From Escherichia phage JSSK01: 44,509 nucleotides of DNA. The notes beneath the pieces are model-generated. The model had not been told where the DNA came from and ran no database searches. It was given only the letters and a program-made list of their open reading frames with translations. Position 1 is the stretch's first letter. The number at the start of each line of letters is the position of its first letter. The translations under genes and the position numbers were made by a program. Of the stretch, positions 26,893 through 40,038 are shown piece after piece. The DNA is taken from sequence record OQ442786. One strand, given 5' to 3'.

Positions 26893-26896
26893 AACT

Positions 26897-26920
26897 AAGG
26901 CCCCAAACGGGGCCTTTTCT
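26897..26920. terminator. bidirectional terminator (AGGCCCC-AAAC-GGGGCCT, TTTTCT)
   Basis: between convergent tailspike and minus-strand replication genes. Confidence 0.7.
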
Positions 26921-27058
26921 CTACTCTTCCGATAACTTCTCCAGTACAAACGCCAGTTGCGCATTAGCGGCGTCTCTCTGTTGCCGTAGTCGCAGAACCT
27001 CCTCTTCGAGTTCCTTGATACGTTTTTGCAATGCCGGAATCGGGGCTATGATGTTCAT
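26921..27058 (-). CDS. hypothetical small coiled-coil protein (45 aa)
   Basis: not in track; ATGA coupling with Toprim gene stop; ends at terminator. Confidence 0.25.
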   Translation of the reverse strand: MNIIAPIPALQKRIKELEEEVLRLRQQRDAANAQLAFVLEKLSEE

Positions 27059-27570
27059 CTGGTAAATTTCCTCGCAAGATACGTTATTTCTTCTTCACAA
27101 AGTTCATCAAGGTCGTTAGATACAAATCCTCTGGTGAATGTTTTGCTGAACTTTAATCCAGCTTTATCATTGTCGCCAGCGCACACCCAGTCATACGGCA
27201 AAAGTGACATTTGCTGCCGTAGGTCTGTTGATATATTTGACCCCAGTGCGCTTACAGCATTGAACCCGCAATTCATCAAGGCTACGGCTTTGAATATGCT
27301 TTCGGTAACAAATACCACCCCGCTTTCCGGCAAATACTCAAGCCCCCATAAACACGGCCTTGTTGTTCTGGTAAAGTACCGCGCGTCTTTAGGGTTTTTA
27401 CAGTTCTTTTCGGCATGTGGTTTGTAATGCTGGTATCCGCGAAGCCTACCGTCAAACCCCCACAGGTAAAACGTAGCTACTCCAGGGGCTAAGACTACCC
27501 GGAGACGGTCGGCGTCAAACCCACGCGCCAGCAGATGCGCCTTAAGTAGTAACTCCTCACAATCCATCAT
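27055..27570 (-). CDS. Toprim-domain protein (DnaG-like primase core or nuclease)
   Basis: VFVTESIFKA (conserved Glu) and CAGDNDKAG (DxD) in Toprim-like order. Confidence 0.5.
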   Translation of the reverse strand: MMDCEELLLKAHLLARGFDADRLRVVLAPGVATFYLWGFDGRLRGYQHYKPHAEKNCKNPKDARYFTRTTRPCLWGLEYLPESGVVFVTESIFKAVALMNCGFNAVSALGSNISTDLRQQMSLLPYDWVCAGDNDKAGLKFSKTFTRGFVSNDLDELCEEEITYLARKFTR

Positions 27571-28991
27571 TTCTTACCTCGTCTCTTCATGTAATTAAGC
27601 AATTCTTCCTGTACTGATTTCTTCTCGTCTGTACGAGCGGCGACAACCTCGTCAAGAGTGTCTTTAGCAACGATGTGGTAGAGGAACACCGGGCGCTCGT
27701 GCCCTGCCTGCTTCTGGCGGACAGGGCCTATACGCTCAACCACCTGCAAATAGTGCTCAAGGTTCCAACCTTGTGAAATAAACGCCAGATGGTGACCGCC
27801 GTCCTGTAAATTCAAACCATGACCGGCTGACGCAGGGTGTACGCACAAGATTTCGATTTCACCTCGGTTCCACGCTTCCATCTGCTTATTACCCTTAGCA
27901 CCTTTGGCAAATGCCTGTGCCTGCGGGAATCGCTTAAGGATGCGCTCCAGTTCGTGCTTGAACTGATAGGCTACAAGCAACGGCGCACCCTGTAACTCCT
28001 CAACAATGGACTCAAGCGCATCAAGTTTAGTGTCGTGCACTTTCTCCCATTCTTTGGTTGCTTCGCCATCTGGTCCCGATACATACACGGCACCAGAAGC
28101 AATCTGCAGGCACTTCGACGTCTTCGCTGCCGCGTTAGCCGCTTCAACTTCTCCGCTCTCCAGTTCCGCGAATAACTTTTCCTCCATATCTATGTACGCC
28201 TGACGCGCTTTCTTCGGCAGGTCGATTTCAACCGGTACAATAATCGGCGCTTCACACCCGAACCACTCGGCGGCGTCAATCGTGAGGCTAATATCCTTCA
28301 TCTTCTGGTGAATTTCACTATCCGCGCCAGGGCGCGCATGATACTCCCGCGCCATAGCCGATTTGCCTTTCTGCACCGAGTTAAACCAGCGGTCGGTGAA
28401 TGCGGTGTATGAAGACCCCAGGCGCTCGCCAGCGTCGATAAACCAGTTCTGGCCCCACAAATCCTTGAGGCCGTTAGGTGATGGTGTACCTGTAAGGTTA
28501 ATGAAACGCTTAACCTTACCGAACGCCACTTTGCTTAGCGCCTTCGCCCGCTTGCTTCCGCCAGAACGGCTGCGGAAAGATTTAAGCTTCGTGCTTTCAT
28601 CGGCAACGATAACAGTAAAAGGCCAGTCGTCTTTTCCGTAGTAGTCAATCAGCCACTCAATAACTTCGTAGTTTGTGCAAACCACGTTAGCATCAGACTC
28701 CAGCGCCGCGATGCGGCGCTTCTCCGAACCAGTTGCATCGACTACACTCAGGCAAGGAAAGTTCCATTTCTCTTGTTCTGCGGGCCACGTGCCTGACGCA
28801 ACACGTAACGGGGCGAGGATTAACACGCGGTCGCCGTCATTAAGTTGGCCGTTGCGGAACAGTCGGTTTAATGTCCACAGTACGCTGCCAGTCTTCCCGG
28901 CACCCATGCTTGCCCAAATATTACAGCGATGGTGCCGCAACATGAACGAAGTCATGAGCTTCTGGTACTCGCGCCTTTGAAACTTAGACAT
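27567..28991 (-). CDS. SNF2/DEAD-like superfamily 2 helicase
   Basis: start reassigned to ATG 28991 (MSKFQ, GAGG SD); Walker A GAGKTGS, DEST box (VIVADEST), helicase C-terminal QVVERIGPVRQ. Confidence 0.85.
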   Translation of the reverse strand: MSKFQRREYQKLMTSFMLRHHRCNIWASMGAGKTGSVLWTLNRLFRNGQLNDGDRVLILAPLRVASGTWPAEQEKWNFPCLSVVDATGSEKRRIAALESDANVVCTNYEVIEWLIDYYGKDDWPFTVIVADESTKLKSFRSRSGGSKRAKALSKVAFGKVKRFINLTGTPSPNGLKDLWGQNWFIDAGERLGSSYTAFTDRWFNSVQKGKSAMAREYHARPGADSEIHQKMKDISLTIDAAEWFGCEAPIIVPVEIDLPKKARQAYIDMEEKLFAELESGEVEAANAAAKTSKCLQIASGAVYVSGPDGEATKEWEKVHDTKLDALESIVEELQGAPLLVAYQFKHELERILKRFPQAQAFAKGAKGNKQMEAWNRGEIEILCVHPASAGHGLNLQDGGHHLAFISQGWNLEHYLQVVERIGPVRQKQAGHERPVFLYHIVAKDTLDEVVAARTDEKKSVQEELLNYMKRRGKK

Positions 28992-29667
28992 GATTAGCCT
29001 CGTAAACTGCTTTCGCAAACCCTCTCGGAGTAAGGCTGCGGATTGTCTTTGTCCGCACTGATTTACCGCCAAGTTTGTTGTGCTGGTCGGAGTACCCATC
29101 AACAACGGCAACACATGATTTAACCGGCATAACAAAACCGTTACCCGCCCAAATACATGTCTTCTTAGGGTACGCGTCCCGTGGTTTTATGTATTCAGGG
29201 AACATTGGGTGTGTGTCGTTTTCCGGTAGATAGCCGCCGTATTCGTAGGGATTGAACGCGTAGTCGGGCCTACGCCATAAAGACGAAAGAACGCTAACAG
29301 GGTTCTCAATCATATACGGTACTTTGTACTTTTTAGCCAGACGCGCTGCCACTTTGCATGTAATCACAGCCTCTACCTGAAACGTTGGGTTCTTCTTACG
29401 CTTCGTTTCGAAATGCGCCGCGCCACTAACGGCTAAATCTGTGCAAGGAGGGAACGCAAAAATAATATCCGGCGAAACCTCGAAGTCGAACTTATTATCA
29501 ATCCACGCGTTTATATAGTGGATGTTCTCGTGTTCAACCTTTGCACCCAATCGTGCGTAGTCGCCGTGGTCAGCGCCATCGTAGTTGAAACAGTAGCAAG
29601 TATGGCCTGCTTCTGCCCACGGTTGGGCCATAAGGCCCGAACCGTCAAACAATGACCAAACAATCAT
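28984..29667 (-). CDS. DNA (cytosine-5)-methyltransferase-like protein (compact, atypical)
   Basis: motif I LFDGSG, motif IV PPCT (Cys ~75), motif VI ENP (~121) with spacing similar to C5-MTases; only 227 aa. Confidence 0.55.
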   Translation of the reverse strand: MIVWSLFDGSGLMAQPWAEAGHTCYCFNYDGADHGDYARLGAKVEHENIHYINAWIDNKFDFEVSPDIIFAFPPCTDLAVSGAAHFETKRKKNPTFQVEAVITCKVAARLAKKYKVPYMIENPVSVLSSLWRRPDYAFNPYEYGGYLPENDTHPMFPEYIKPRDAYPKKTCIWAGNGFVMPVKSCVAVVDGYSDQHNKLGGKSVRTKTIRSLTPRGFAKAVYEANHV

Positions 29668-29855
29668 TTCGCCACCAGAACTAACTCTTTACGCCCGAAC
29701 GCCGTAACGTTACCAGTTACATCTTCAATAACCAGTTTACCGTTCGACTCGACGAACACCGTATCAACGGCAACAGGGCGACGGGTCTTAACGTTGAAAA
29801 TCATGTCGCCCGGTACGATGTCGCGTGCTGGTTTGCGGTCATATTCGTGTTTCAT
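29664..29855 (-). CDS. hypothetical protein (63 aa)
   Basis: track ORF, ATGA-coupled to methyltransferase gene; downstream of conserved promoter cassette. Confidence 0.45.
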   Translation of the reverse strand: MKHEYDRKPARDIVPGDMIFNVKTRRPVAVDTVFVESNGKLVIEDVTGNVTAFGRKELVLVAK

Positions 29856-29885
29856 TTCTCAATTCCTTATATTGTTGGTGTGTGA

Positions 29886-30173
29886 CTAACTATAATAGCT
29901 CGCTATTAGGGTGTCAACCTGTTTAAACGAACCGACGACAAAAACATTCGCACCACGTTTACGCATCCGCTCGTGCTCGCGTAACTGGTGCGGGTCAGGC
30001 TTCGTGTTTTCGTCTTTCTTAACCTCGACGAACCAGACGATGCCGCCTGGGAGAATTGCCAGCAGGTCGGGAGCACCCGAACGTCCTTCGTAGGAGAGCT
30101 TACGAACGAGGCCCCCCAGGGCCTCGAATCGGTCTTTTGCGTATTTCTGTATTTTGCCCTCAGGAGTACTCAT
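29886..30173 (-). CDS. VRR-NUC domain nuclease
   Basis: GAPDLLAILPGGIVWFVEVKK matches the VRR-NUC signature (PD...EVK). Confidence 0.65.
   Translation of the reverse strand: MSTPEGKIQKYAKDRFEALGGLVRKLSYEGRSGAPDLLAILPGGIVWFVEVKKDENTKPDPHQLREHERMRKRGANVFVVGSFKQVDTLIASYYS
29889..29917 (-). promoter_or_regulatory. replication-module promoter cassette copy 1 (TTGACA-17-TATAGT)
   Basis: plus-strand text AACTATAATAGC...CTATT...GTGTCAAC; three near-identical copies. Confidence 0.55.
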
Positions 30174-30254
30174 CTATACACCCCTCACGTTTCGTGTGCT
30201 CAATCCCGCAGCGCGGACAGATTCGACAGTCTTCTTCATAGAACCAGTAGATTT

Positions 30255-30386
30255 TCATTCCAGCACCCATAGATAAATTGCGATGAACATTCCCAATATG
30301 GCAACCATCATTCCGTATTGGCCCTCGTGACAGTAGACACCGGCGGCGAATCCCGCCAGTAACGCGATAATCAGTTTACTTAGCAT
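30255..30386 (-). CDS. hypothetical small membrane peptide (43 aa)
   Basis: not in track; overlaps 3' end of polymerase gene; hydrophobic. Confidence 0.25.
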   Translation of the reverse strand: MLSKLIIALLAGFAAGVYCHEGQYGMMVAILGMFIAIYLWVLE

Positions 30387-32547
30387 AACGTTTTAACTCC
30401 TGACCTTCCGCTACAAGAGGGAACCCTTCGGCCCATTCTGGTAATTCGCACATCAACCGCTCAAGCTCTGCGACATTGTATTCTGGTAAATCCGGTGTCT
30501 CGCAGATAATTTCATCGTGAACATGGAGCACAATCGGGTAGCCGTTTGCCTCTACGTTCAGCAGCGCGTTAGCCAGCAAATCACGGCACAGCGCCTGAGT
30601 GCAGTTTTCCACCAGTTTACCAGAGTAGGTGTACTGGAAGCCCCACTGACGGGTTAACTGGTTCTCCCCCTGGTACTTGATGCGCACGTTAGTAGACACT
30701 TTTCCATCTTCGTCTGTCTCTTTCGACACGCTTAACCCGACACCTGGATAAGACATAACGCGGCCCGACGGCAACGTCATGCGCAACCACCAACCGGCGA
30801 CTTTGTTGCCGTTGTTGTCTGTCTCTACGTTGCGCGAAAACTTAACGCCGCGGGGACCTGCGGTGAACTCTTTACCGGGATTACGGATTGCTGCCATAGC
30901 TGCGTCTTCAATATCGCGCCAGAATTGGACTATTGCAGGATTAGCTTCCCGGTACATGCGCTTTAAAGCGTCACAGGTGCGCCAAACTTTCTTATCAAGG
31001 ATATATGAGGGTCGGTCATCTTTTTCACCAGGACGTGGTGGTCGCTTGGCTTCCTGAATACGCGCCCATTCGTATCCGCGTGCGGTAGCGGCCCAAATAT
31101 GGTCCGGGAATGTACCGTCTAAAGTGTTAGTCATGTCATTCAAATCAAGACCTAAGTTTTTAGCAAACGTGACGAAAGCACCGACGCCCCCCGCGTAGCC
31201 GAGTCCCAGAACCATTGCTTTGGCTATTTGTCTTTGGTCCTTTGTTACGGCTTCATATGCAACATTGAACACCGTTGATGCGAGTTTCTTATACACATCA
31301 ACCCCGTTTACAAATACTTCGATTAAATCGTCTTCACCCGCCAGCCACGCAAGACCGCGGCCTTCGACGTTAGAGTAATCGGCAACGACAAACTTATGCC
31401 CTGCTTCCGGTATGATGCAGCTGCGCACCGTCGATGCCGTTAGTTTGGCTACATCGAAACGGCGGTGCGCACGGCCTTTAAGTAACGCAGAAATGCCTTT
31501 ATCCAGTTCGTCGTCGTGATAGTACCCGCGAGCCAGGTTCTGCGGCTGGAAGCCTTTACCCGCAAATCGTAACGTACGTTTAGCTCCACCATACTGGATG
31601 CAACCGCGACGTCGGTCGTCCGACGAGCGGCCTAACAGCAGCGGGTTATATTTCGTGGACGCTGTTGACGCGGCCCCGAGGCGCATTTCGATAATCATCC
31701 GGGCGTCGTCCGGTAAATCATCATCTGCCAACAGGTCGTTAAGCGTCGACTTCTGTGCATTGTGTATGCGGTGCGCGGGCGCAAGTTCACGCAGAATCGG
31801 AAGGAAGTCTTTACCGGTAAGCGAGCCGCCGTATTTACGTTGAGCTTCTTCCTGTAACTGTGCCTTGTGCTTCTCTACGGCTTCAATCGCGGCTTCCGCC
31901 AGTGCGACGTCAACCTTAAATCCGCGGTCGTTGATTAACTGGTCAAGTTCCAGTACACGGTCTTCGAACTCGGAGTTACCCCAACGCGGCAGCTTATGGA
32001 AGACTTCACGCATCGCAGTGATGTCGCTCACGGCGTACCTGATGAACATCGCCCACTCGTCAGGGTGAGTTTCTGCGGTGTAGCGGCGGATTTTGTAGTT
32101 CTTCGGCGTCGGTTTAGAGAAACGCTTAATCAGAGCCTTGCCGCGTTTATCTTTCGCGTTGTCTGCAGACACGCCCAGCACTTCGCACAGCGCATCAAGA
32201 GAACCCGGCAGCGCGTGACGGAACGCCCAAATCATAGTATCAATGGTGTTACTTACCGGAATATCAAAGTCCCAGCAGTGTTTCATGATTAGGCGATCGA
32301 AAAGTCCACCGTTGTGCCACACCATCCTGATGCGGCTGTTGGGCTTAACAAGGCGGCGCAGTGCGCGGTGTAAATCCCCCGGCATGTCGCTGCCGTCGGT
32401 GCAATCCCATACCTGCACAGGCTCATCGTCAAAAGCATAGGTACAGATTAGCACTTCGGTTGACGGGTGTTCGGCGTAAGCGTAAGAACCGACTTTCTTC
32501 AAATCGGCTTCTGAGAATGTTTCAAAGTCTAAGAACAGGTAACTCAT
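30376..32547 (-). CDS. family A DNA polymerase with 3'-5' exonuclease domain
   Basis: Exo I motif LFLDFETFS; motif A DYSNVEGR; motif B RQIAKAMVLGLGYAGG; motif C HVHDE. Confidence 0.9.
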   Translation of the reverse strand: MSYLFLDFETFSEADLKKVGSYAYAEHPSTEVLICTYAFDDEPVQVWDCTDGSDMPGDLHRALRRLVKPNSRIRMVWHNGGLFDRLIMKHCWDFDIPVSNTIDTMIWAFRHALPGSLDALCEVLGVSADNAKDKRGKALIKRFSKPTPKNYKIRRYTAETHPDEWAMFIRYAVSDITAMREVFHKLPRWGNSEFEDRVLELDQLINDRGFKVDVALAEAAIEAVEKHKAQLQEEAQRKYGGSLTGKDFLPILRELAPAHRIHNAQKSTLNDLLADDDLPDDARMIIEMRLGAASTASTKYNPLLLGRSSDDRRRGCIQYGGAKRTLRFAGKGFQPQNLARGYYHDDELDKGISALLKGRAHRRFDVAKLTASTVRSCIIPEAGHKFVVADYSNVEGRGLAWLAGEDDLIEVFVNGVDVYKKLASTVFNVAYEAVTKDQRQIAKAMVLGLGYAGGVGAFVTFAKNLGLDLNDMTNTLDGTFPDHIWAATARGYEWARIQEAKRPPRPGEKDDRPSYILDKKVWRTCDALKRMYREANPAIVQFWRDIEDAAMAAIRNPGKEFTAGPRGVKFSRNVETDNNGNKVAGWWLRMTLPSGRVMSYPGVGLSVSKETDEDGKVSTNVRIKYQGENQLTRQWGFQYTYSGKLVENCTQALCRDLLANALLNVEANGYPIVLHVHDEIICETPDLPEYNVAELERLMCELPEWAEGFPLVAEGQELKRYAK

Positions 32548-32564
32548 TATTTTTGACCCCTAGT

Positions 32565-32587
32565 AAAAAGGCCCAATGAAGGGCCTT
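32565..32587 (-). terminator. attenuator hairpin between SSB and polymerase genes
   Basis: GGCCC stem with T-run on the minus strand. Confidence 0.4.
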
Positions 32588-32606
32588 AGTTAAATTGATT
32601 CAGATA

Positions 32607-33233
32607 TTAGCGGCGGCGACGTTCGCGGCGCGGTGCTTCATCTTCTTCGTCGTCTTCCAGGTCATTGACGCTCGCAGCGACTTTAGAACCGCCGAACGCT
32701 TTGCCTTCACCGACGTACTTAATCGCCAGCAGGTTAACCCCGAGAACTTTATATTTCTGGCTGAACCAGATTTCGACGCTTACGTTAGCGACACAGCCAC
32801 TGTAAACCTGTTCGCCTTCAATCTGTTCGCCGTCTACGTTGAAGTCCTGCTCCACCTGAGTCTCACCTTTTTTAGAGGTTACAATCAGCGGCTGCTTCTG
32901 CGCCTTCGCTTTGAAGTAGAAGCCTTCTGGGAAGTCTTCAAACGGGTTATCACGCTCAGCAATGTCTTTAATCGCGCATTTATCCATGTGCTTACCTTCG
33001 CCGTAGTTGGACTTCATCCATTTCTCGGCAGCAGCTGCGCCTAACGCTTCCTCAACCACAGCGTAAACAGTGTCGTAGAGTGCATCGATTTGAGCGTGGT
33101 CAGGCGGCAGGATGATAGTCGCGCTATACTGGCCTTTAGTGATGGAGCCATCATCGTTTTCACGGTCTTTTTCTCGTTCGAATACGTTAACCCATGCAGT
33201 GTTTACTTTACGCAGATTCAGTTTAATTCCCAT
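32607..33233 (-). CDS. single-stranded DNA-binding protein (gp2.5-like / DUF2815-like, putative)
   Basis: 208 aa, acidic DLEDDEEDE C-terminal tail; between PD-(D/E)XK nuclease and DNA polymerase. Confidence 0.45.
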   Translation of the reverse strand: MGIKLNLRKVNTAWVNVFEREKDRENDDGSITKGQYSATIILPPDHAQIDALYDTVYAVVEEALGAAAAEKWMKSNYGEGKHMDKCAIKDIAERDNPFEDFPEGFYFKAKAQKQPLIVTSKKGETQVEQDFNVDGEQIEGEQVYSGCVANVSVEIWFSQKYKVLGVNLLAIKYVGEGKAFGGSKVAASVNDLEDDEEDEAPRRERRRR

Positions 33234-33287
33234 CTTAATTTCTCGCTTTTCAGTTTACTCCTGGAAGCTGCCAGGCCAGTGATTAGA

Positions 33288-33316
33288 ACTATAATAGCTA
33301 ACTATTCAGGTGTCAA
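33288..33316 (-). promoter_or_regulatory. replication-module promoter cassette copy 2 (TTGACA-17-TATAGT)
   Basis: plus-strand text GAACTATAATAGCTAACTATTCAGGTGTCAACAC. Confidence 0.55.
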
Positions 33317-33320
33317 CACT

Positions 33321-34562
33321 TTATTCTAAATCTTTTTCACTAACCCGATTCCACTCAGGACGTTTGTCGTTTGCCGTTGCGACACATGGCGCTCCTGGCT
33401 TACGGGTAATGAAGTCTTTCAGTTCATCTTCCGGTATGACTTTAACAGCTTCGGTTGGCGTCATGAGCACTTGCTTCATTAGCGCTATGCCATACTTGCC
33501 AGCAACTTTCTCCGCGTCTTTCCACGCACGATTACCTGGGCGTCCTTCTACCAGTTTGTACCCCGGCACTTTCTTACCGGAATGCAGCGCGGCAGCCATA
33601 GCTTTCTCAACCTTGTCGATGTGCTGGCGCAACAACGGCAACTTCTCATACTCAGCTACAAGTTGCTCCGTCGTCAGTTCCAGCGCAAAGTCGTCCTCCA
33701 GTTCTTCCGCCAGTACAGCGTTAACGGTTTTTGTACGCGCGGCGCATTGTTCAGAGAACCGACACCACTGACAACCATCGACAGACGGCTTAAAGTCAGA
33801 TGCTTTCAGGTTCTTCTTGCCGCGGGAATAGGCATCGAGCGCTAACAGTGCTCGTTTTTGTGCAAACTTAGCGAACAGTTCAAGGCCTTCAACCGAGATG
33901 TCCCACTCCGACGCACCGCCAGCGCACGGCTGGAAAATTACCAGACGAACCACGGTGATGTTATAACGCCTCTTGAGTCGGCGATAAACACCGAGAGCGT
34001 AAAGCATAAGCTGCTTGTTTTCTTTCGCTTCGACACGATGCCGTCCTGTTTTCAGGTCGCCGATAATGAGCATATGCTCGTCAGTGTTCGCCAGTTCCTG
34101 AACGGCAACAAGGTCAGCGGTTCCGAACGTCTCAACGCCTTCGTAACCCGGATGCAATACCTCAGTAAGATTTACCCGCATTTCCAGCTTGGCGTAAGTC
34201 GCTACGTCGATAATCGCTTTGCAGTAGTCGGTGTACTTGCGCACCTGCTCAATCATGTCAGCCGTAATCAGTACCGCGCCTTTCATCTGGCTAATTAGCG
34301 CCTTAATCTGGCCTTTACCCTCGTCCAGCACGTAAGCGCCGACTTCACGCTCCAACGGCAACGCAGTGCCGCGTATATAGGCGTTGAGATGGACCTCAGC
34401 TATGGTGTGCATGGCGGTTCCTGATACAGCGGCTTTACCCGACGTGTTAGGGATATCTTTTTCACACGCCAGCGACGCAGCGCATGACAGCCACTTTTTA
34501 GCGCCTGACGGTGACAGTAAGGCGTGTACATCATTATTGCCGCCTCGTTCTTTTAGTTTCAT
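33321..34562 (-). CDS. PD-(D/E)XK exonuclease (DUF2800 / Cas4-RecB-like) with C-terminal Cys cluster
   Basis: start reassigned to ATG 34562 (MKLKE); N-terminal LLSPSGAKKWLSCAASL typical of DUF2800; C-terminal CQWCRFSEQC. Confidence 0.6.
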   Translation of the reverse strand: MKLKERGGNNDVHALLSPSGAKKWLSCAASLACEKDIPNTSGKAAVSGTAMHTIAEVHLNAYIRGTALPLEREVGAYVLDEGKGQIKALISQMKGAVLITADMIEQVRKYTDYCKAIIDVATYAKLEMRVNLTEVLHPGYEGVETFGTADLVAVQELANTDEHMLIIGDLKTGRHRVEAKENKQLMLYALGVYRRLKRRYNITVVRLVIFQPCAGGASEWDISVEGLELFAKFAQKRALLALDAYSRGKKNLKASDFKPSVDGCQWCRFSEQCAARTKTVNAVLAEELEDDFALELTTEQLVAEYEKLPLLRQHIDKVEKAMAAALHSGKKVPGYKLVEGRPGNRAWKDAEKVAGKYGIALMKQVLMTPTEAVKVIPEDELKDFITRKPGAPCVATANDKRPEWNRVSEKDLE

Positions 34563-34859
34563 GCTCTTAAACTCCCACCCCATTTAACTTTACGCGTTTT
34601 GCGCTTGTAGGCGCACGTGTCACCGCTACGGTTGAATATAATCAGCCAAGTCGAGTTGCTTACTCGAAAAGGCTGGTGACATTTAATAAAGAGAAGTCGC
34701 GCTTTACGGTTCGTCATTCTGCAATCTCCACAATACGCGCATTAGTGAAACTGCGTGCGAAGCCGAATGTGTAGAAGATGTACTGGGCTTCGTCCAAACG
34801 TGCGTAGCGGCTGTGTTCCTGGTCTTTACCGTCTATTTCTACAATTATCGCGTACCTTG

Positions 34860-35132
34860 TCATACCCTGCTCTCCCACTGGTCGATTAAATGTCGCGTCT
34901 TATGTTCGCAGTGCATAGCCCACCCATACATCGACTCAAAGACATAAAAGTCTGGCTTGGCGAATGTCGTGCGCTTAATCTGTGACACGTGACGACCTAT
35001 ATCTTTAGGCCGCGGTACTTTGCCTAAGTAAGCCATCTCTTCCATCTGGTGCGCCCCGGACGGCGCACGCAACAGCCATAGTGCCTCTGTGTTGTCCCGC
35101 CTGTCGACGGCGCGGTAGAGTTGGTAAATCAT
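34860..35132 (-). CDS. hypothetical protein (90 aa)
   Basis: track ORF in coupled minus-strand gene chain. Confidence 0.45.
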   Translation of the reverse strand: MIYQLYRAVDRRDNTEALWLLRAPSGAHQMEEMAYLGKVPRPKDIGRHVSQIKRTTFAKPDFYVFESMYGWAMHCEHKTRHLIDQWESRV

Positions 35133-35332
35133 TTCCTTACCCTCGCAGAATTAATCCACGTGAAAACATCGTCAATAGAAAAATCGCCGTCGAAAACCTT
35201 CTCAACTTTGCTGGCCTTCTTGACCGTCGTAGGGTGTTTGTTGTCTACCGCCTGAAATACGTAAACCAAATCATTTTCAGCGACAACGCTGCCAGAAATC
35301 ATAAGACCACTTTTCTTAGCTAAAATAGCCAT
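35129..35332 (-). CDS. hypothetical protein (67 aa)
   Basis: track ORF, ATGA-coupled. Confidence 0.45.
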   Translation of the reverse strand: MAILAKKSGLMISGSVVAENDLVYVFQAVDNKHPTTVKKASKVEKVFDGDFSIDDVFTWINSARVRK

Positions 35333-35343
35333 AATTCCGACCC

Positions 35344-35559
35344 TCAGTAGTACGGCGCAAATTCACCTTTAACGGCGGGACGAATTGTATGTACCGCCGT
35401 TTTATCGGTTGGGTACATGTCCGCCCAATATTCGCCAGCGGCATAGTCAAGAGTCCCGCGCCACGCACCATTCAAAACAAAGAATTGCTGACAACCAACA
35501 TATGAGTCACTTATTTCTACAACTATTTGTTCGTTTATTACTTTGTATACGTTACTCAT
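35344..35559 (-). CDS. hypothetical protein (71 aa)
   Basis: track ORF. Confidence 0.45.
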   Translation of the reverse strand: MSNVYKVINEQIVVEISDSYVGCQQFFVLNGAWRGTLDYAAGEYWADMYPTDKTAVHTIRPAVKGEFAPYY

Positions 35560-35602
35560 TATTACGACCCTCAGTTAAAGCGGCCCGAAGGCCGCCAGAT
35601 AA

Positions 35603-36127
35603 TTATTCTTCTTCGAAATACTTGTTCTTGATTGCTGTCAAGCGTTCCAGGTATTCAGCCAGGTCTTCGTCTTTAATCGCTGCAATCTTCATTTTCTTAC
35701 CAGTGAACTCTTCCAGCAGTTCATCAGAATCGTCGCACGCGGCATCGCTAGGACCTTCATTAATTGCATCGTCGATGGCCTGAATCTGGTCACGAAGAGA
35801 CTGGTAATCGACCTCTTCTTTCTCTTCTTCCGGTTCTGGCGTAGGCTCCTCTACTTTAGGTTTACGCGGCTTGCGTTTCGGCTTCTCTTCTTCTGCTGGT
35901 TTGGTGTCAACGACGTCTTCACCTTCGACCTCAATGTCTCTTACCGCGTCGAACGCTTCTTTAACCACATGAGCTACCGTCTTTTCTTCGACCGTGATTT
36001 CTTTTGTTGCAACAGTAGGCTTTATTGTTGCGGATTCAGCAATGACTACTTGTTTCGAACTATTCGCGGCAATCAGTTCATGTGCAACTACGAAACGTTC
36101 CAGCAATACTAAGAATTTCTCTAACAT
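35603..36127 (-). CDS. highly acidic protein (174 aa), unknown function
   Basis: long Glu/Asp-rich stretches (EVEGEDVVD..., PEPEEEKEEVD...). Confidence 0.5.
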   Translation of the reverse strand: MLEKFLVLLERFVVAHELIAANSSKQVVIAESATIKPTVATKEITVEEKTVAHVVKEAFDAVRDIEVEGEDVVDTKPAEEEKPKRKPRKPKVEEPTPEPEEEKEEVDYQSLRDQIQAIDDAINEGPSDAACDDSDELLEEFTGKKMKIAAIKDEDLAEYLERLTAIKNKYFEEE

Positions 36128-36151
36128 TTGTTTCTCTCCTGTTTGTGTAAG

Positions 36152-36379
36152 TTACTCACCGTCGCCTTCAGTAAGGCTATCGTCTATTAGTTCAAATTTA
36201 CCGTTTGAGTGTTGAATAGCTTCTTGCCCGCAATGGTCACAGACAACAAGTTTATCGAACCCATCAAACTCATCCCCTACTACGCAAGAAAGTACAAATT
36301 TATGTTTTGTGCACACTTCTTGCGGAGCGCCGAAAATTGCTCGAAAACCTTTAGCTATGGCCCCAGTGATTGTGTTCAT
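36152..36379 (-). CDS. zinc-ribbon-like small protein
   Basis: CxxC pairs (CTKH...C and CDHCG). Confidence 0.5.
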   Translation of the reverse strand: MNTITGAIAKGFRAIFGAPQEVCTKHKFVLSCVVGDEFDGFDKLVVCDHCGQEAIQHSNGKFELIDDSLTEGDGE

Positions 36380-36407
36380 ATCTGCCCCTCTCGTTTGGTA
36401 TGGGCTA

Positions 36408-36436
36408 ACTATAATAGCGAACTATTCACATGTCAA
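36408..36436 (-). promoter_or_regulatory. replication-module promoter cassette copy 3 (TTGACA-17-TATAGT)
   Basis: plus-strand text TAACTATAATAGCGAACTATTCACATGTCAATGG. Confidence 0.55.
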
Positions 36437-36500
36437 TGGGCTTTTCTAAAATAATTAATATGGTACTATTCACATATCAACTGACTAAGGAGTAACTGAC

Positions 36501-36716
36501 ATGCAACCATCTGAACTAGGCATCCGTGTAGAGCAACGCCGTAAAGAACTCGGTATCTCCCAGCGCCGTCTGGCTGTTCTGGCCGGCGTTTCCCAGGGCG
36601 CGATTAACCAGCTTGCACTCGGGGTAACTCAGGACGTACGCCCGGCAACGCTGTTTAAACTGGCGGAAGTGCTGGAAGTAGACGCCAAGTGGCTGGCGCT
36701 AGGTGAAGGGGCGTAA
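36501..36716 (+). CDS. XRE-family HTH transcriptional regulator (Cro/CI-like)
   Basis: ISQRRLAVLAGVSQGAINQL is a classic HTH_XRE signature; AAGGAG SD; stop codon lies in terminator loop. Confidence 0.7.
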   Translation: MQPSELGIRVEQRRKELGISQRRLAVLAGVSQGAINQLALGVTQDVRPATLFKLAEVLEVDAKWLALGEGA

Positions 36717-36731
36717 CGCCCCTTTCTTTTT
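36708..36731 (+). terminator. rho-independent terminator (GGGGCG-TAA-CGCCCC, TTTCTTTTT)
   Basis: read from sequence. Confidence 0.6.
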
Positions 36732-36733
36732 AC

Positions 36734-38956
36734 CTATTCCAAATCCTCCTCTGTCACCACCAGCATCTCATTTGGTTCGTATAGTGTCTTCGGCCTTAAT
36801 CTATCACCTATTCTTTCGGGTATACGATATGTTCTCGGTACTACTTCGCCGTTAGCATCGCAACCAAGCATTAGTTCTCCATCTTTCAACATTTTATCAA
36901 GATGGGTGTTAGTCACAGAGAAGTCACCGGAACGAGCCACTATCTGCTGCTGAGTAAAACCGCGACCTGTGTCATCTGACTGTTGCAGGTCTTCCAGTGC
37001 CGAAAGTATTGACTCCTTCCTTACTTCATCCCTGCCGCGTTTAACTTCTTCCTTTACTTTTTGCTTACCTTCTTTCGTCAACCCTTCTTCCCGCTCTTTC
37101 TCCTCGTCAGTTTTGAACGGCTCGAAACCCCACGGCATCAACACAAGCGCCTTGTGTGGTTCAGGCAGGTCCAGGTTTACGATTGTGCCGTATTCCTCTG
37201 TGCTACCCAGGAACTCAACCGCTCGGTATTCTTTAGGCGGCGGCGCTTCACGGAACTGTACCGACTCCAGCACCATGCCAACCGTCTTCTGCTGAGGCCC
37301 GTGCTTGAATTTCGAGTGATATACGTTTATCTGACGGTCGGTTGCACGTTCGATTGTCAGTTCCACGTCAACACCCGCATACAGCGCCCCACTGCCGCGT
37401 GCTTTCTTTCCACCCTTCGGCGTATGGTGGACAACGCCTACTGCGGCTTTAGTTGCATCGCGTACTTCTTTCAGAATGGCGATAACTTTACCCATGCCGA
37501 TTGCTGTTGATGAACTGTTCTCGTCGAACTTATCAATCGTCAGTGCCAGGGTCTGGTTAAGGGTGTCGAACGCAACCATGCCAATTGGCTCGTCGCCAGC
37601 AGTTTCGCGCATTAACTTAATCAGGCTTTTAAGTTTGCCGACTTCGCCCATATCGATGACGTGTACATAATCTTTACCTTCCCCGCCATATTTAGCCGCT
37701 AGTGCATCAATACGGGTGCGTGTAGCTGCGCCACCCTCACCATCAATATAGAAATGGTGGCAACGCTGGGTATCCGCCCCCGCAAACCTGTACCCGGCGG
37801 CGCTGAGGCACATCATCCCCAGCGTATAGAACGATTTGTACGTGCCAGATTCCCCGACGATATCCCAGATACAATCCGACGGCATGTACCCCTCAACGAC
37901 GAAATCAGCCTTTACCGGCTCCGGTAACTCGTCCTCCTCTGAGTCCTCGTCGTCTTCCAGGTCGTCGAGGCTGCAAGTTACTGGGTCCTCGTTCTCTGTG
38001 CGGTGTAGTTCTTCAATCTCTTCTTCCGGTAAATCAGGCAGAGCCGCACGAATGCTGTTAATGCTGATAGGTTGCTTATCTATGTTAAGCTCGTCGGGTA
38101 GGCCACACATACGCAGGGCCAAATGCTGCCTACGGTTAAGCTCGGTGCAAGCGCCGTTGTTTGTATGCTGGCAGACAAAGCGCACTTCTTTACCGTCGAG
38201 CATTATGCTGGTGGAGCCCTTGCCTGTATGCAGATGTTCGTTAGGGCATGGCACTTCGTACCCGCGCCCGGAAGATAAAGCGTCAAGGCCAAGCTCGGCT
38301 TCGCAGAAGTGTGCTATATCCGCGTTAAGCCCATGCTCATCAGCGGCAAGTGTTTTAGCCTCACGCTTACGCAACCCCATCTCTTCGGCTTTCTTGATGT
38401 ACCGCTCAGCACGGATAACACGCCCTTCTGTAACCGTTATCTTCGACTCTTTATGCGGCAGGTAGATAAGGCGGTTGCCGTCTTCTGTGCAGTGGTCACG
38501 CAACGCTTCGTCTATTTCTAACTCTGCACAAATAGCACGTTGCACCATCCACGCGTCGTTAGAGTTAAACGGCGTGCGAGCTGGAACCAGAACGCGGAAA
38601 GCGTAATCTCCGTTTTTACATGCGTGCTGATGCGATGCCGTTGTGTGCAGAATATTGAAGAACGGCGCGTTCTTGAATTTGCGTGTCAGGTCGCGGTACT
38701 GAGTACGGTTGAGATGGTCGAAATCGAACTTAACCACACTGTCTTCCAGGATAGCGTTTTTACGGCGACCACCAACAGGCGCAATAGCTTTCTGTTTAAT
38801 CTTGGCAGCGTCGTACTCTTCCTTAGTCCATGACGGGTCCACGGATAAACGCTTCGATGTATCGCAGACATACTCGACAAACTGCTCCAGCGGCATTTCA
38901 CGCGCTACAGGGTTTTTATCGAATGTGTTACGCAGCGTTGCAAAAACAATATTCAT
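36734..38956 (-). CDS. DNA primase/helicase (AEP-type primase-like N-terminal region + RecA-like ATPase)
   Basis: Walker A GESGTYKS, Walker B-like MVAFDTLNQ, sensor VVHHTPKGG; N-terminal DxD (FDFDHL) and His-rich block suggestive of AEP primase. Confidence 0.75.
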   Translation of the reverse strand: MNIVFATLRNTFDKNPVAREMPLEQFVEYVCDTSKRLSVDPSWTKEEYDAAKIKQKAIAPVGGRRKNAILEDSVVKFDFDHLNRTQYRDLTRKFKNAPFFNILHTTASHQHACKNGDYAFRVLVPARTPFNSNDAWMVQRAICAELEIDEALRDHCTEDGNRLIYLPHKESKITVTEGRVIRAERYIKKAEEMGLRKREAKTLAADEHGLNADIAHFCEAELGLDALSSGRGYEVPCPNEHLHTGKGSTSIMLDGKEVRFVCQHTNNGACTELNRRQHLALRMCGLPDELNIDKQPISINSIRAALPDLPEEEIEELHRTENEDPVTCSLDDLEDDEDSEEDELPEPVKADFVVEGYMPSDCIWDIVGESGTYKSFYTLGMMCLSAAGYRFAGADTQRCHHFYIDGEGGAATRTRIDALAAKYGGEGKDYVHVIDMGEVGKLKSLIKLMRETAGDEPIGMVAFDTLNQTLALTIDKFDENSSSTAIGMGKVIAILKEVRDATKAAVGVVHHTPKGGKKARGSGALYAGVDVELTIERATDRQINVYHSKFKHGPQQKTVGMVLESVQFREAPPPKEYRAVEFLGSTEEYGTIVNLDLPEPHKALVLMPWGFEPFKTDEEKEREEGLTKEGKQKVKEEVKRGRDEVRKESILSALEDLQQSDDTGRGFTQQQIVARSGDFSVTNTHLDKMLKDGELMLGCDANGEVVPRTYRIPERIGDRLRPKTLYEPNEMLVVTEEDLE

Positions 38957-39150
38957 TTCTTTTTCTCCGCACGTTCTAAGGCTTCCTGCATACGGCGCAT
39001 TGCGCGGTTCATCTTTACCGGCGCGAAGAAATCGGCGCCGTGTTTCTGTCGGCGTAGCTGTGGAACTATTAACTTTGTCATTGTATAATCCTTATGCTTA
39101 CTTTGATGGTTTGTACTTTAGCCCCGACGTTCTAGCGTTGGGGTTTCTTT

Positions 39151-39441
39151 TTACCGTTTAGCCAACCCTTCCAGCAAATTTTTATACTCTTCAAAATATT
39201 CCTCGACCAAATCATCGCCGAAATAGAAGTCGATATACTCGAGATTATCTCTTACGTTAAGCGATGCCGACATGGTGCTTAGTTGGCGTAAGCTAATTAG
39301 CTTCATTTCTGTTTCTACGCAGAAAGGCCGGTAGGTATCAAGATGGCAAGAGATATTGAAGCATAAAGCGAACTCTCCTGCCACGGAGTGAACCATATAC
39401 ACTTCGTTTTCTGCTTTATTGTGGAAAATTACGCCTTTCAT
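39151..39441 (-). CDS. hypothetical protein (96 aa)
   Basis: track ORF, ATGA-coupled to upstream HTH gene. Confidence 0.45.
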   Translation of the reverse strand: MKGVIFHNKAENEVYMVHSVAGEFALCFNISCHLDTYRPFCVETEMKLISLRQLSTMSASLNVRDNLEYIDFYFGDDLVEEYFEEYKNLLEGLAKR

Positions 39442-39620
39442 TTCACGTTCTCCTTAATCCATGCTTCGACTTTATTACGGTCAAATGTTCCCGGTAAACG
39501 GCGGCCCATAATCTTAATACAGCAGTCAGGGAATTTGCCGCTGCGCAACCAGTTATTAATTGTCTGACGTGTCACCCCGATACGTTCAGCTACTTCATTC
39601 TGCGTCATATAATGCGACAT
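39438..39620 (-). CDS. small HTH DNA-binding protein (AlpA/excisionase-like fold)
   Basis: start reassigned to ATG 39620 (AGGAGAT SD); MTQNEVAERIGVTRQTINNWLRSGKFP is HTH-like; first gene of minus-strand operon. Confidence 0.55.
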   Translation of the reverse strand: MSHYMTQNEVAERIGVTRQTINNWLRSGKFPDCCIKIMGRRLPGTFDRNKVEAWIKENVK

Positions 39621-39651
39621 TTTTATATCTCCTGTTTGTTTGGTGAAACTG

Positions 39652-39680
39652 AGTATAGGATAGCGGGAATGTAAAAGCAA
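39652..39680 (-). promoter_or_regulatory. candidate leftward promoter TTGCTT-17-TATACT
   Basis: read on minus strand upstream of HTH gene. Confidence 0.4.
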
Positions 39681-39717
39681 CCAATCTCTGTAATATTTAA
39701 TCTTTACAAAAATGTTA

Positions 39718-39747
39718 TTGAAAGTTCTTGACACATGTTTGTATAAT
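39718..39747 (+). promoter_or_regulatory. candidate rightward promoter TTGAAA-18-TATAAT
   Basis: perfect -10 hexamer; adjacent TTGACA is only 8 bp from the -10. Confidence 0.4.
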
Positions 39748-39753
39748 GGTTTT

Positions 39754-39973
39754 GGGACTTGTATATATTACGGAGTTGACGAACCCTCCCCGAGGGATTC
39801 GTCAACCCCTCCCAGACAGCTGAGATGCTTGCCTTGGGGTTTAAGGATAAGTGTATCTAAATCTCATTTAAAGAAGTAACCCGCTGAAATATCTACTGTT
39901 TCTTAATGTGCCGTAGATTCGCAACCGTAAAAATGTAACGATTATTGGGCAGGCTTAAGCCTGCCCTTTAGTT
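39754..39973 (+). ncRNA. candidate ~215-nt non-coding transcript ending at intrinsic terminator
   Basis: no ORF longer than ~15 codons; imperfect palindrome GTTGACGAA...TTCGTCAAC; CCCTCCCCGA boxes. Confidence 0.25.
39947..39973 (+). terminator. rho-independent terminator (GGGCAGGCTT/AAGCCTGCCC perfect inverted repeat, TTTAGTT)
   Basis: 10-bp perfect inverted repeat followed by T-rich run. Confidence 0.6.
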
Positions 39974-40038
39974 ACCAAGTAATAAGAATAAAGGCACAAC
40001 CCTCCCCGAAGAATCACAACGGCAACGTAACTATTCTC

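What the first reader, a model, noticed from the sequence alone, without database searches (positions are those of the whole stretch)
30376..34562. PD-(D/E)XK exonuclease, gp2.5-like SSB and family A polymerase as a compact unit with an internal attenuator
A DUF2800-type nuclease with Cas4-like Cys cluster, an acidic-tailed SSB and PolA are adjacent on the minus strand. A hairpin with T-run (~32565-32587) lies between the SSB and polymerase genes, which suggests differential dosing of SSB versus polymerase.
Basis: partly seen in the sequence, partly recalled or inferred. Interest (0 to 1): 0.35.

Follow-up and report, generated by a model that had tools for sequence, protein, structure and literature searches.

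The report
Phage SSB cassette with leaky terminator
This is the already described nuclease / gp2.5-like SSB / DNA polymerase A replication module of a Kagunavirus coliphage. The SSB gene sits between its own promoter and a conserved terminator hairpin, which probably makes SSB far more abundant than the polymerase; this is real but ordinary.

Summary
The window is the complete genome of Escherichia phage JSSK01, a Kagunavirus of the Guernseyvirinae. All three gene calls hold:
- DUF2800/PD-(D/E)XK nuclease with an invariant C…CX2CX5C cysteine set
- DUF2815 (Enc34/T7 gp2.5-type) SSB
- family A polymerase with its proofreading motif

The hairpin plus T-run is exactly at 32565-32587 (minus strand). 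It is not a chance feature. In 86 of 87 relatives (SSB 34-100% identical) a GC-rich hairpin plus T-run follows the SSB stop codon, within 15-20 nt in all but two. The stems differ but stay complementary and the loops drift.

- A strong sigma-70 promoter (33316-33288), one of three near-identical copies, lies between the nuclease and SSB genes.
- A 5'-leader hairpin (33275-33260) shows compensatory changes across relatives.

So the SSB gene is a self-contained cassette of promoter, leader hairpin, ORF and terminator. No promoter-like site precedes PolA, so PolA most likely depends on read-through. SSB codon adaptation (0.56) is second only to the major capsid protein.

Differential dosing is therefore plausible but no transcript data test it. 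The literature names the 'duf2800-gp2.5-polA module', and related GenBank/RefSeq records already annotate this promoter and terminator. Verdict: confirmed, ordinary, already known.

The parts
33321..34562 (-). DUF2800 / PD-(D/E)XK (RecB/Cas4-like) exonuclease gene, 413 aa. An in-frame ATG 7 codons upstream lies at 34583.
   Evidence: Pfam PF10926 E 1.5e-67 and PF12705 E 6e-9. phrog_69 exonuclease E 8e-119. 100% identical to the 413-aa 'putative nuclease' of Escherichia phage JSSK01. C264, C267, C273, D150, D169, K171, Q184 and Y188 are invariant and C27 is 96% conserved.
33287..33316 (-). Sigma-70 promoter of the SSB gene. The -35 TTGACA is at 33316-33311 and the -10 TATAGT at 33293-33288. The spacer holds the palindrome AATAG-N4-CTATT (33306-33293), a likely operator.
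   Evidence: 11/12 match to consensus. One of three copies of a 30-nt motif, against 0 expected by chance. Conserved upstream of the SSB gene in the Guernseyvirinae relatives whatever the upstream gene is. Annotated as a promoter in RefSeq NC_073186.
33260..33275 (-). 5'-leader stem-loop of the SSB mRNA (CCUGG-CAGCUU-CCAGG). It starts about 10 nt after the predicted transcription start and is followed by an A-rich tract that is predicted to be unstructured and runs up to the AUG.
   Evidence: Predicted in the minimum-energy fold. On 22 distinct relatives 95.5% of cells are paired, 3 of 5 pairs change on both sides (CCGGG/CCCGG, CCUGG/CCAGG, CCCAG/CUGGG, CUCGG/CCGAG, CCCGG/CCGGG), and 0 of 500 shuffles reach the score. 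The rest of the leader folds less well than 193 of 200 shuffles.
32607..33233 (-). T7 gp2.5 / Enc34 ORF6-type ssDNA-binding (and probably annealing) protein, 208 aa. The tail is DLEDDEEDEAPRRERRRR.
   Evidence: Pfam PF10991 E 8e-16. phrog_112 E 7e-42. Weak PDB matches to the DUF2815 structures 4jg2 and 5odj. CAI 0.56, second only to the major head protein at 0.62. No E. coli-type SSB elsewhere in the window.
32565..32587 (-). Intrinsic-terminator-like hairpin (7-bp stem, 6-nt loop) plus a run of five T's, placed between the SSB stop codon and the PolA ribosome-binding site.
   Evidence: Sequence. dG -12.5 kcal/mol, the weakest of five terminator-like hairpins in this region. Conserved in position with covarying stems in 86 of 87 relatives. 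The equivalent hairpin is annotated 'terminator' in NC_073186 and MN070121.
30376..32547 (-). Family A DNA polymerase with an N-terminal 3'-5' exonuclease domain and no 5'-3' exonuclease domain. Its Shine-Dalgarno GGGG is at 32560-32557.
   Evidence: PF00476 E 7e-22; PF01612 E 5e-4, below its cut-off. phrog_17 E 2e-135. PDB hits to Taq, Bst and Klenow polymerases, E about 4e-10. Motifs visible in the translation: LDFETFS (ExoI), DYSNVEGR (A), RQIAKAMVLGLGYAGG (B), VHDEI (C).
29888..29917 (-). Next copy of the same 30-nt promoter, inside the 3' end of the VRR-NUC gene. It marks the downstream limit of the read-through unit (PolA, a 43-aa ORF and VRR-NUC).
   Evidence: The same position is annotated as a promoter in NC_073186.
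36407..36436 (-). Upstream copy of the same promoter, at the head of the operon that runs into the nuclease gene. It faces the HTH regulator gene (36501-36716, plus strand) divergently.

Best explanation
The region is the conserved duf2800-gp2.5-polA replication/recombination module of a Kagunavirus. Within it the SSB gene is a self-contained high-output cassette.

How it most likely works:
1. Host RNA polymerase starts at a near-consensus sigma-70 promoter just upstream of the SSB gene. These transcripts add to read-through from the promoter at 36436.
2. The SSB mRNA begins with a short stem-loop, which probably protects the 5' end, and continues with an open, A-rich translation-initiation region.
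3. It ends at a moderately strong intrinsic terminator 19 nt after the stop codon.
4. A fraction of polymerases read through the hairpin. These are the only recognisable source of mRNA for PolA, the 43-aa ORF and VRR-NUC, up to the next promoter copy at 29917.

The outcome is much more SSB, which coats ssDNA stoichiometrically, than polymerase and nuclease, which act catalytically.

Shown here: gene identities, the promoter motif, both hairpins and their covariation, the absence of a promoter-like site before PolA, and the codon bias.

Inferred: that the hairpin terminates transcription, that termination is partial, and that the leader hairpin stabilises the mRNA.
For: - Gene identities.
- The literature names the 'duf2800-gp2.5-polA module' in phages of Firmicutes and Gram-negative bacteria (PMC8093625).
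- DUF2815 protein is a T7 gp2.5-like SSB (PMC5686142).
- Promoter: 11/12 to consensus, three copies against 0 expected, conserved upstream of the SSB gene whatever the upstream gene is.
- Terminator hairpin present in 86 of 87 relatives across Kagunavirus, Jerseyvirus, Cornellvirus, Dhillonvirus and Kosakonia phage Kc259, 15-20 nt after the stop in all but two. There are four different stem cores and 15 different loops. Covariation score 0.459 against 0.211 in shuffles, reached by 0 of 500.
- The hairpin stays attached to the SSB gene when accessory ORFs are inserted before PolA.
- No promoter-like site on the minus strand between 33288 and 29917.
- The hairpin is the weakest of five terminator-like hairpins nearby.
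- SSB CAI is 0.56 against 0.18-0.41 for the other replication genes, and second only to the major head protein at 0.62.
- Leader hairpin covariation.
- Independent annotators marked a promoter and a terminator at the equivalent positions in phage PVP-SE2, and a terminator in phage Shemara.
Against: - There are no transcript data, so termination and its efficiency are untested.
- The hairpin did not pass the simple terminator scan, and its U-tract is short.
- The fold of the whole intergenic region is not better than shuffles (z = -1.5).
- The promoter scan sees only sigma-70 consensus sites, so a phage-modified or weak promoter for PolA cannot be excluded.
- The only Kagunavirus RNA-seq paper (PMC12645636) puts PolA in a later temporal class than most genes. 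That fits a boundary between SSB and PolA, but it could equally mean temporal control rather than dosage control. The paper gives no per-gene levels.
Confidence: 0.6

Rival explanations
1. The hairpin is an efficient terminator, and PolA expression is controlled in time rather than in dose. PolA, the 43-aa ORF and VRR-NUC would be transcribed only when a phage factor allows read-through (antitermination), or from a promoter type that the scan cannot see.
For: The K1B4 time course places the family A polymerase and the methyltransferases among genes peaking late, while most genes peak in the middle period. Several small ORFs of unknown function lie upstream at 34559-36379. Relatives have longer stems, dG -14 to -15.6 kcal/mol.
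Against: No antiterminator-like protein or RNA was recognised. The window's hairpin is the weakest of the local terminator-like hairpins, with only five U's. A replication polymerase held back until late would be odd for a lytic phage. The K1B4 sampling (5-120 min) is coarse and gives no levels.
Confidence: 0.15
2. The hairpin acts mainly after transcription. It would be a 3'-exonuclease barrier or processing site that stabilises the SSB segment of a long polycistronic RNA, with little real termination.
For: A stable stem-loop at the 3' end of a highly expressed gene, paired with a conserved stem-loop at the 5' end, is the classic layout of a stabilised mRNA segment. The U-tract is short.
Against: A T-run directly follows the stem in every lineage, although the stems themselves differ. 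A pure stability element would not need it. The two roles do not exclude each other.
Confidence: 0.15
3. The hairpin is a chance inverted repeat with no function.
For: The terminator scan of 14 kb finds no more terminator-like sites than shuffled sequence does (12 against 14.9). The local fold z-score is only -1.5.
Against: Its position is conserved in 86 of 87 relatives down to 34% SSB identity. Stems are compensated and loops vary freely.
Confidence: 0.02

Closest known systems
duf2800-gp2.5-polA module of tailed phages (Steczkiewicz et al. 2021, PMC8093625)
   Same: Same three Pfam families in the same order and orientation, with no separate E. coli-type ssb gene.
   Different: Nothing essential differs. 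This copy has a promoter and a terminator bracketing the middle gene, which that paper does not discuss.
Replication region of other Guernseyvirinae, e.g. Salmonella phage PVP-SE2 (NC_073186), Shemara (MN070121) and Escherichia phage Bas70 (PQ850619)
   Same: Same gene order. PVP-SE2 has a promoter before the SSB gene, a rho-independent terminator between the SSB and PolA genes, and a promoter at the VRR-NUC 3' end, all annotated. Shemara has the terminator annotated. The region is 88-94% identical in nucleotides to many Kagunavirus genomes.
   Different: The stem sequence differs: GGCCC/GGGCC here, GGCGGC/GUCGCC in Jerseyvirus, GCCCGC/GCGGGC in Cornellvirus. Some relatives carry HNH or small ORFs between the hairpin and PolA, or inteins in PolA. 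The window has neither.
T7 gene 2.5 protein and Enc34 ORF6 (PDB 5odj; PMC5686142)
   Same: Same Pfam family PF10991 as Enc34 ORF6, which is structurally similar to T7 gp2.5. The acidic C-terminal segment is implicated in partner binding in T7 gp2.5 and in ssDNA specificity in Enc34 ORF6.
   Different: The tail ends in a basic RRERRRR block, not an acidic or aromatic terminus. Relatives repeat acid/base blocks. Only weak sequence similarity to the solved structures (E 4e-4 and 0.011).
T4 gene 32 (SSB) expression unit
   Same: An SSB gene whose leader has a structured 5' element followed by an A-rich unstructured tract up to the ribosome-binding site (PMC535899).
   Different: Unrelated protein family. 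The element here is a simple hairpin, not a pseudoknot. Binding of the SSB to its own mRNA is not shown. This is a resemblance in layout only.
Cas4 / AddB / RecB-family PD-(D/E)XK nucleases with a 4Fe-4S cluster
   Same: D...DxK and QxxxY motifs, plus one N-terminal Cys and a C-terminal CX2CX5C. Pfam PDDEXK_1 hit. A GenBank record of a relative calls it 'Cas4-like'.
   Different: No hit to the Cas4 Pfam family or to any NCBIfam model. No PDB relative by sequence. It has about 130 extra C-terminal residues and is not next to CRISPR.

Membership tests
duf2800-gp2.5-polA phage module | Adjacent, co-oriented genes with PF10926, PF10991 and PF00476, in that order | tested here: met
   All three score above the Pfam gathering cut-offs.
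duf2800-gp2.5-polA phage module | No separate canonical ssb gene in the neighbourhood | tested here: met
T7 gp2.5-type SSB (PF10991 / DUF2815) | Match to the family profile above the curated cut-off | tested here: met
   58.6 bits against a cut-off of 26. phrog_112 E 7e-42.
T7 gp2.5-type SSB (PF10991 / DUF2815) | Acidic C-terminal tail | tested here: inconclusive
   An acidic block DLEDDEEDE is present but is followed by the basic PRRERRRR. The protein ends in Arg, not in an acidic or aromatic residue.
T7 gp2.5-type SSB (PF10991 / DUF2815) | OB-fold with the long capping helix after strand beta2; ssDNA binding | not tested
   No structure was predicted for the SSB. Binding needs an experiment.
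Cas4/RecB-like PD-(D/E)XK nuclease with Fe-S cluster | Catalytic D...(D/E)xK and QxxxY motifs | tested here: met
   D150, D169-L-K171 and Q184...Y188 are invariant in 22 relatives. PF12705 E 6e-9.
Cas4/RecB-like PD-(D/E)XK nuclease with Fe-S cluster | Four cysteines: one N-terminal plus a C-terminal CX2CX5C | tested here: met
   C264, C267 and C273 are invariant. C27 is 96% conserved, missing only in one N-terminally truncated ORF.
Cas4/RecB-like PD-(D/E)XK nuclease with Fe-S cluster | Membership of the Cas4 family proper (profile match) or fold match to a solved Cas4/AddB nuclease | tested here: not met
   No Cas4 Pfam or NCBIfam hit. No PDB hit by sequence or by profile. The AlphaFold model was too poor to use (pLDDT 37). 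The protein is therefore 'Cas4-like' and is not filed as Cas4.
Family A DNA polymerase | PF00476 above cut-off and polymerase motifs A, B and C | tested here: met
   78.3 bits against 34.3. DYSNVEGR, RQIAKAMVLGLGYAGG and VHDEI are in the translation. PDB hits to Taq, Bst and Klenow.
Family A DNA polymerase | 3'-5' proofreading exonuclease domain | tested here: inconclusive
   PF01612 scores 20.4 bits, below the 23.6 cut-off. The ExoI motif D-x-E is present at residues 7-9. phrog_403 exonuclease subunit E 2e-4.
Rho-independent (intrinsic) terminator | GC-rich stem, loop of 3-8 nt, immediately followed by a U-tract | tested here: inconclusive
   The stem has 7 bp (5 G-C), the loop 6 nt, and five T's follow, two of them inside the stem. 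It was not listed by the consensus scan. dG -12.5 kcal/mol.
Rho-independent (intrinsic) terminator | Located at the 3' end of a gene and maintained by selection | tested here: met
   Present in 86 of 87 relatives, 15-20 nt after the SSB stop in all but two, with covarying stems.
Rho-independent (intrinsic) terminator | Releases RNA polymerase in vitro or in vivo | not testable with these tools
   Needs Term-seq or a reporter or in vitro assay.

The most novel reading that the evidence does not exclude
The conserved, covarying 5'-leader stem-loop, together with the unstructured A-rich tract that runs to the start codon, could be a translational operator through which the gp2.5-like SSB represses its own mRNA once free ssDNA is saturated. 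In some relatives this tract contains 2-3 tandem AAACUG units. The layout would be analogous to T4 gene 32, but in an unrelated SSB family for which, to my knowledge, no autoregulation has been described. Together with the leaky terminator this would form a two-layer dosing circuit.
Probability: 0.12. Interest if true: 0.45.

Novelty: already known. Interest (0 to 1): 0.15.

Why it matters
It matters little beyond good annotation. The module is named in the literature, the window is a deposited phage genome, and curators of related genomes have already marked the promoter and terminator. The comparative data add some firmness. The SSB gene of Guernseyvirinae and Dhillonvirus phages is bracketed by a promoter, a covarying leader hairpin and a covarying terminator. 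That gives a clean natural example of setting protein stoichiometry inside a replication operon, and a possible source of compact promoter and terminator parts for phage engineering. The one thread worth an experiment is whether the leader hairpin is an SSB autoregulatory site.

Tried and rejected
- AlphaFold2 model of the DUF2800 protein, built from 18 close homologues, failed (mean pLDDT 37). I therefore ran no fold search and make no structural claim. The homologue search listed only relatives at 94% identity or more, so a deeper alignment was not available within the rules.
- Sequence and profile searches of the PDB with the nuclease found nothing meaningful. NCBIfam has no model for the nuclease or the SSB.
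- Rfam at E <= 1 found nothing in 26000-40000.
- The built-in terminator scan did not flag the hairpin, and it found no excess of terminator-like sites over shuffles. Conservation had to carry the argument instead.
- Folding the whole SSB-PolA intergenic region suggested pairing between the PolA Shine-Dalgarno sequence and the SSB 3' end. The fold is not better than shuffles (z = -1.5), so I rejected it as evidence for an alternative attenuator structure.
- The K1B4 RNA-seq paper and its supplements give no per-gene expression values.
- A bidirectional terminator was rejected. The plus-strand reading of the hairpin is followed by AGTTAAAT, not a T-run.
- A protein-binding DNA palindrome as the explanation of the leader inverted repeat was rejected. 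What is kept across relatives is complementarity, not base identity.


Full report
**What the window is.** The 413-aa nuclease is 100% identical to 'putative nuclease [Escherichia phage JSSK01]', recorded on a contig of 44,509 bp, which is exactly the window length. The 5-kb region is 88-94% identical in nucleotides to about a hundred Escherichia Kagunavirus genomes. It is more distantly similar to more than 300 Salmonella Jerseyvirus genomes. The window is therefore a deposited Kagunavirus (Guernseyvirinae) genome.

**The genes.** Three long ORFs lie head to tail on the minus strand.
- 33321-34562: Pfam DUF2800 (E 1.5e-67) and PDDEXK_1 (E 6e-9). PHROGs calls it an exonuclease (E 8e-119).
- 32607-33233: PF10991, once DUF2815 and now 'Enc34_ssDNA-bd' (E 8e-16). 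PHROGs calls it a Gp2.5-like ssDNA-binding and annealing protein (E 7e-42).
- 30376-32547: PF00476 (E 7e-22). PHROGs calls it a DNA polymerase (E 2e-135).

**The nuclease.** I aligned it with 22 relatives down to 50% identity. D150, D169-x-K171, Q184...Y188 and the cysteines C264-x2-C267-x5-C273 are invariant. C27 is missing only in one truncated ORF. This is the RecB/Cas4-type arrangement, so 'Cas4-like Cys cluster' is correct as a description. It is not a member of the Cas4 family by profile, and no solved structure is detectable by sequence.

**The polymerase and the SSB.** The polymerase translation shows the ExoI motif and polymerase motifs A, B and C. It matches Taq, Bst and Klenow polymerases in the PDB. 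The SSB tail is only partly 'acidic': DLEDDEEDE is followed by PRRERRRR. Relatives repeat such acid/base blocks. No E. coli-type SSB is encoded elsewhere in the window.

**The hairpin.** On the minus strand, 19 nt after the SSB stop codon, lies AAGGCCC-TTCATT-GGGCCTT followed by TTTAC. The PolA Shine-Dalgarno sequence and ATG follow within 20 nt. Taken alone it is unremarkable:
- Its dG is -12.5 kcal/mol, the weakest of five terminator-like hairpins nearby.
- The consensus scan does not list it.
- The fold of the intergenic region is no better than shuffles.

**Comparison settles that it is real.** I collected loci around SSB homologues from IMG/VR and GenBank. In 86 of 87 evaluable loci, with SSB identity from 34 to 100%, a GC-rich hairpin followed by a T-run sits after the SSB stop, within 15-20 nt in all but two. 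The one exception has a disrupted SSB ORF.

The stem cores differ between lineages:
- GGCCC/GGGCC in Kagunavirus
- GGCGGC/GUCGCC in Jerseyvirus
- GCCCGC/GCGGGC in Cornellvirus-like phages and Dhillonvirus
- GCGCC/GGCGC in Kosakonia phage Kc259

Every one of 20 distinct variants is fully paired, and 15 different loop sequences occur. On a 12-sequence alignment 92.9% of cells pair, 4 of 7 pairs change on both sides, and no shuffle in 500 reaches the covariation score. When relatives carry an extra ORF before PolA (an HNH-like gene or small ORFs), the insertion is always downstream of the hairpin. The hairpin therefore belongs to the SSB gene.

The 87-nt gap between the nuclease and SSB genes holds a near-consensus sigma-70 promoter, TTGACA-17-TATAGT at 33316-33288. 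It is one of three copies of a 30-nt motif on the minus strand; the others are at 36436 and 29917, and none is expected by chance. Its spacer contains the palindrome AATAG-N4-CTATT. That palindrome occurs 12 times in the genome with at most one mismatch, against about 1 expected, mostly inside promoter-like contexts on both strands. It is probably an operator.

The promoter is conserved in front of the SSB gene in the Guernseyvirinae relatives, whatever gene lies upstream. Dhillonviruses have a different sigma-70-like promoter at the same place.

About 10 nt after the predicted start, the leader forms a 5-bp stem-loop at 33275-33260. Relatives show CCGGG/CCCGG, CCUGG/CCAGG, CCCAG/CUGGG, CUCGG/CCGAG and CCCGG/CCGGG. 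On 22 distinct sequences 95.5% of cells pair, 3 of 5 pairs change on both sides, and 0 of 500 shuffles reach the score. The rest of the leader and the start of the ORF fold less well than 193 of 200 shuffles, so the initiation region is open.

**How it most likely works.** The SSB gene is a cassette of promoter (with operator), 5' hairpin, open ribosome-binding region, ORF and terminator. No promoter-like site lies on the minus strand between 33288 and the next motif copy at 29917. PolA, a 43-aa ORF and the VRR-NUC gene therefore most likely depend on polymerases that read through the hairpin, which would make it leaky.

Codon usage gives independent support for high SSB output. CAI is 0.56 for SSB, against 0.34 for the nuclease and PolA and 0.18-0.41 for the other replication genes. 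Only the major head protein is higher, at 0.62.

This fits general knowledge: SSBs act stoichiometrically and polymerases act catalytically. The steps 'terminates', 'partially' and 'the 5' hairpin stabilises' are inferences. No tool here measures transcripts. The one Kagunavirus RNA-seq paper gives only temporal classes, with PolA among the late-peaking genes.

**Rivals.**
- The hairpin is an efficient terminator with timed antitermination or an unseen promoter (0.15).
- It is mainly a 3' stability or processing element (0.15).
- It is a chance repeat (0.02, effectively excluded by the comparative data).

**Comparison with what is known.** The 'duf2800-gp2.5-polA module' is named as such and is said to occur in Firmicutes phages and in most phages of Gram-negative bacteria that carry gp2.5 (PMC8093625). 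DUF2815 was shown to be a T7 gp2.5-like SSB by the Enc34 ORF6 structures (PMC5686142).

RefSeq NC_073186 (Salmonella phage PVP-SE2) annotates a promoter before the SSB gene, a rho-independent terminator between the SSB and PolA genes, and a promoter at the VRR-NUC 3' end. GenBank MN070121 (Shemara) annotates the terminator. A Kagunavirus paper already reported the repeated motif tgAATAGTa-ccTATTat-T, although it assigned it to a phage RNA polymerase (PMC9825357).

The finding is therefore real but already known. I have not seen the covarying leader hairpin described, and Rfam has nothing for it. It is the only part with some residual novelty. [quoted passage not shown]

**Verdict.** The thing itself is ordinary. 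Novelty: already known. Interest: 0.15.

Noticed in passing
window 36407-36436, 33287-33316, 29888-29917 (minus strand); palindromes also at 16814, 40055, 41751, 36457, 6075: A 30-nt promoter (TTGACA-N4-AATAG-N3-GCTATTATAGTT) occurs three times. Its core palindrome AATAG-N4-CTATT occurs 12 times with at most 1 mismatch, against about 1 expected, inside promoter-like contexts on both strands. It is probably the operator of a phage regulator; the HTH gene at 36501-36716 (plus strand) is the obvious candidate. A published Kagunavirus paper listed the motif as 'phage RNA polymerase promoters' (PMC9825357).
   Followed up: partly
window 36407-36480: Two palindrome-bearing promoter-like sites lie back to back between the HTH regulator gene (plus strand) and the early/replication operon (minus strand). 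This looks like a small genetic switch. PVP-SE2 annotates divergent promoters at the equivalent place.
   Followed up: no
loci L047-L125, just downstream of the SSB terminator (equivalent to window 32547-32565): The SSB-PolA junction is an insertion hot spot in relatives. A 157-aa HNH-like ORF, 51-, 92- and 56-aa ORFs and others sit between the hairpin and PolA, starting at about the same distance from the hairpin as PolA does in the window.
   Followed up: partly
SSB leaders of L054, L066, L076 and others (equivalent to window 33234-33259): The A-rich spacer between the leader hairpin and the SSB start codon contains 1-3 tandem AAACTG(A) units, depending on the phage. The copy-number variation may be replication slippage, or it may be relevant to protein binding.
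   Followed up: no
window 32607-32665 (SSB C-terminus) and relatives in alignment A2: The SSB tails are built of alternating acidic and basic blocks. The window has one pair, DLEDDEEDE-PRRERRRR; Cornellvirus-like and Dhillonvirus proteins have two or three. This differs from the purely acidic tails of T7 gp2.5 and Enc34 ORF6.
   Followed up: partly
window 30255-30386 (minus strand): A 43-aa, very hydrophobic ORF (MLSKLIIALLAGFAAGVYCHEGQYGMMVAILGMFIAIYLWVLE) overlaps the PolA stop codon by 11 nt. An ORF of the same size is annotated at the same place in Bas70. Function unknown.
   Followed up: no
L038 (NC_073186) and several Jerseyvirus records: Jerseyvirus relatives carry inteins in the PolA and helicase genes; PolA is 3099 nt there against 2172 nt here. 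The window's genes are intein-free.
   Followed up: no
window 27567-29135 and 28984-29667 (minus strand): The longest ORF for the SNF2-type helicase (TTG start at 29135) overlaps the methyltransferase gene by about 150 nt. PHROG and Pfam matches begin near residue 41-50, so the true start is probably further downstream.
   Followed up: no
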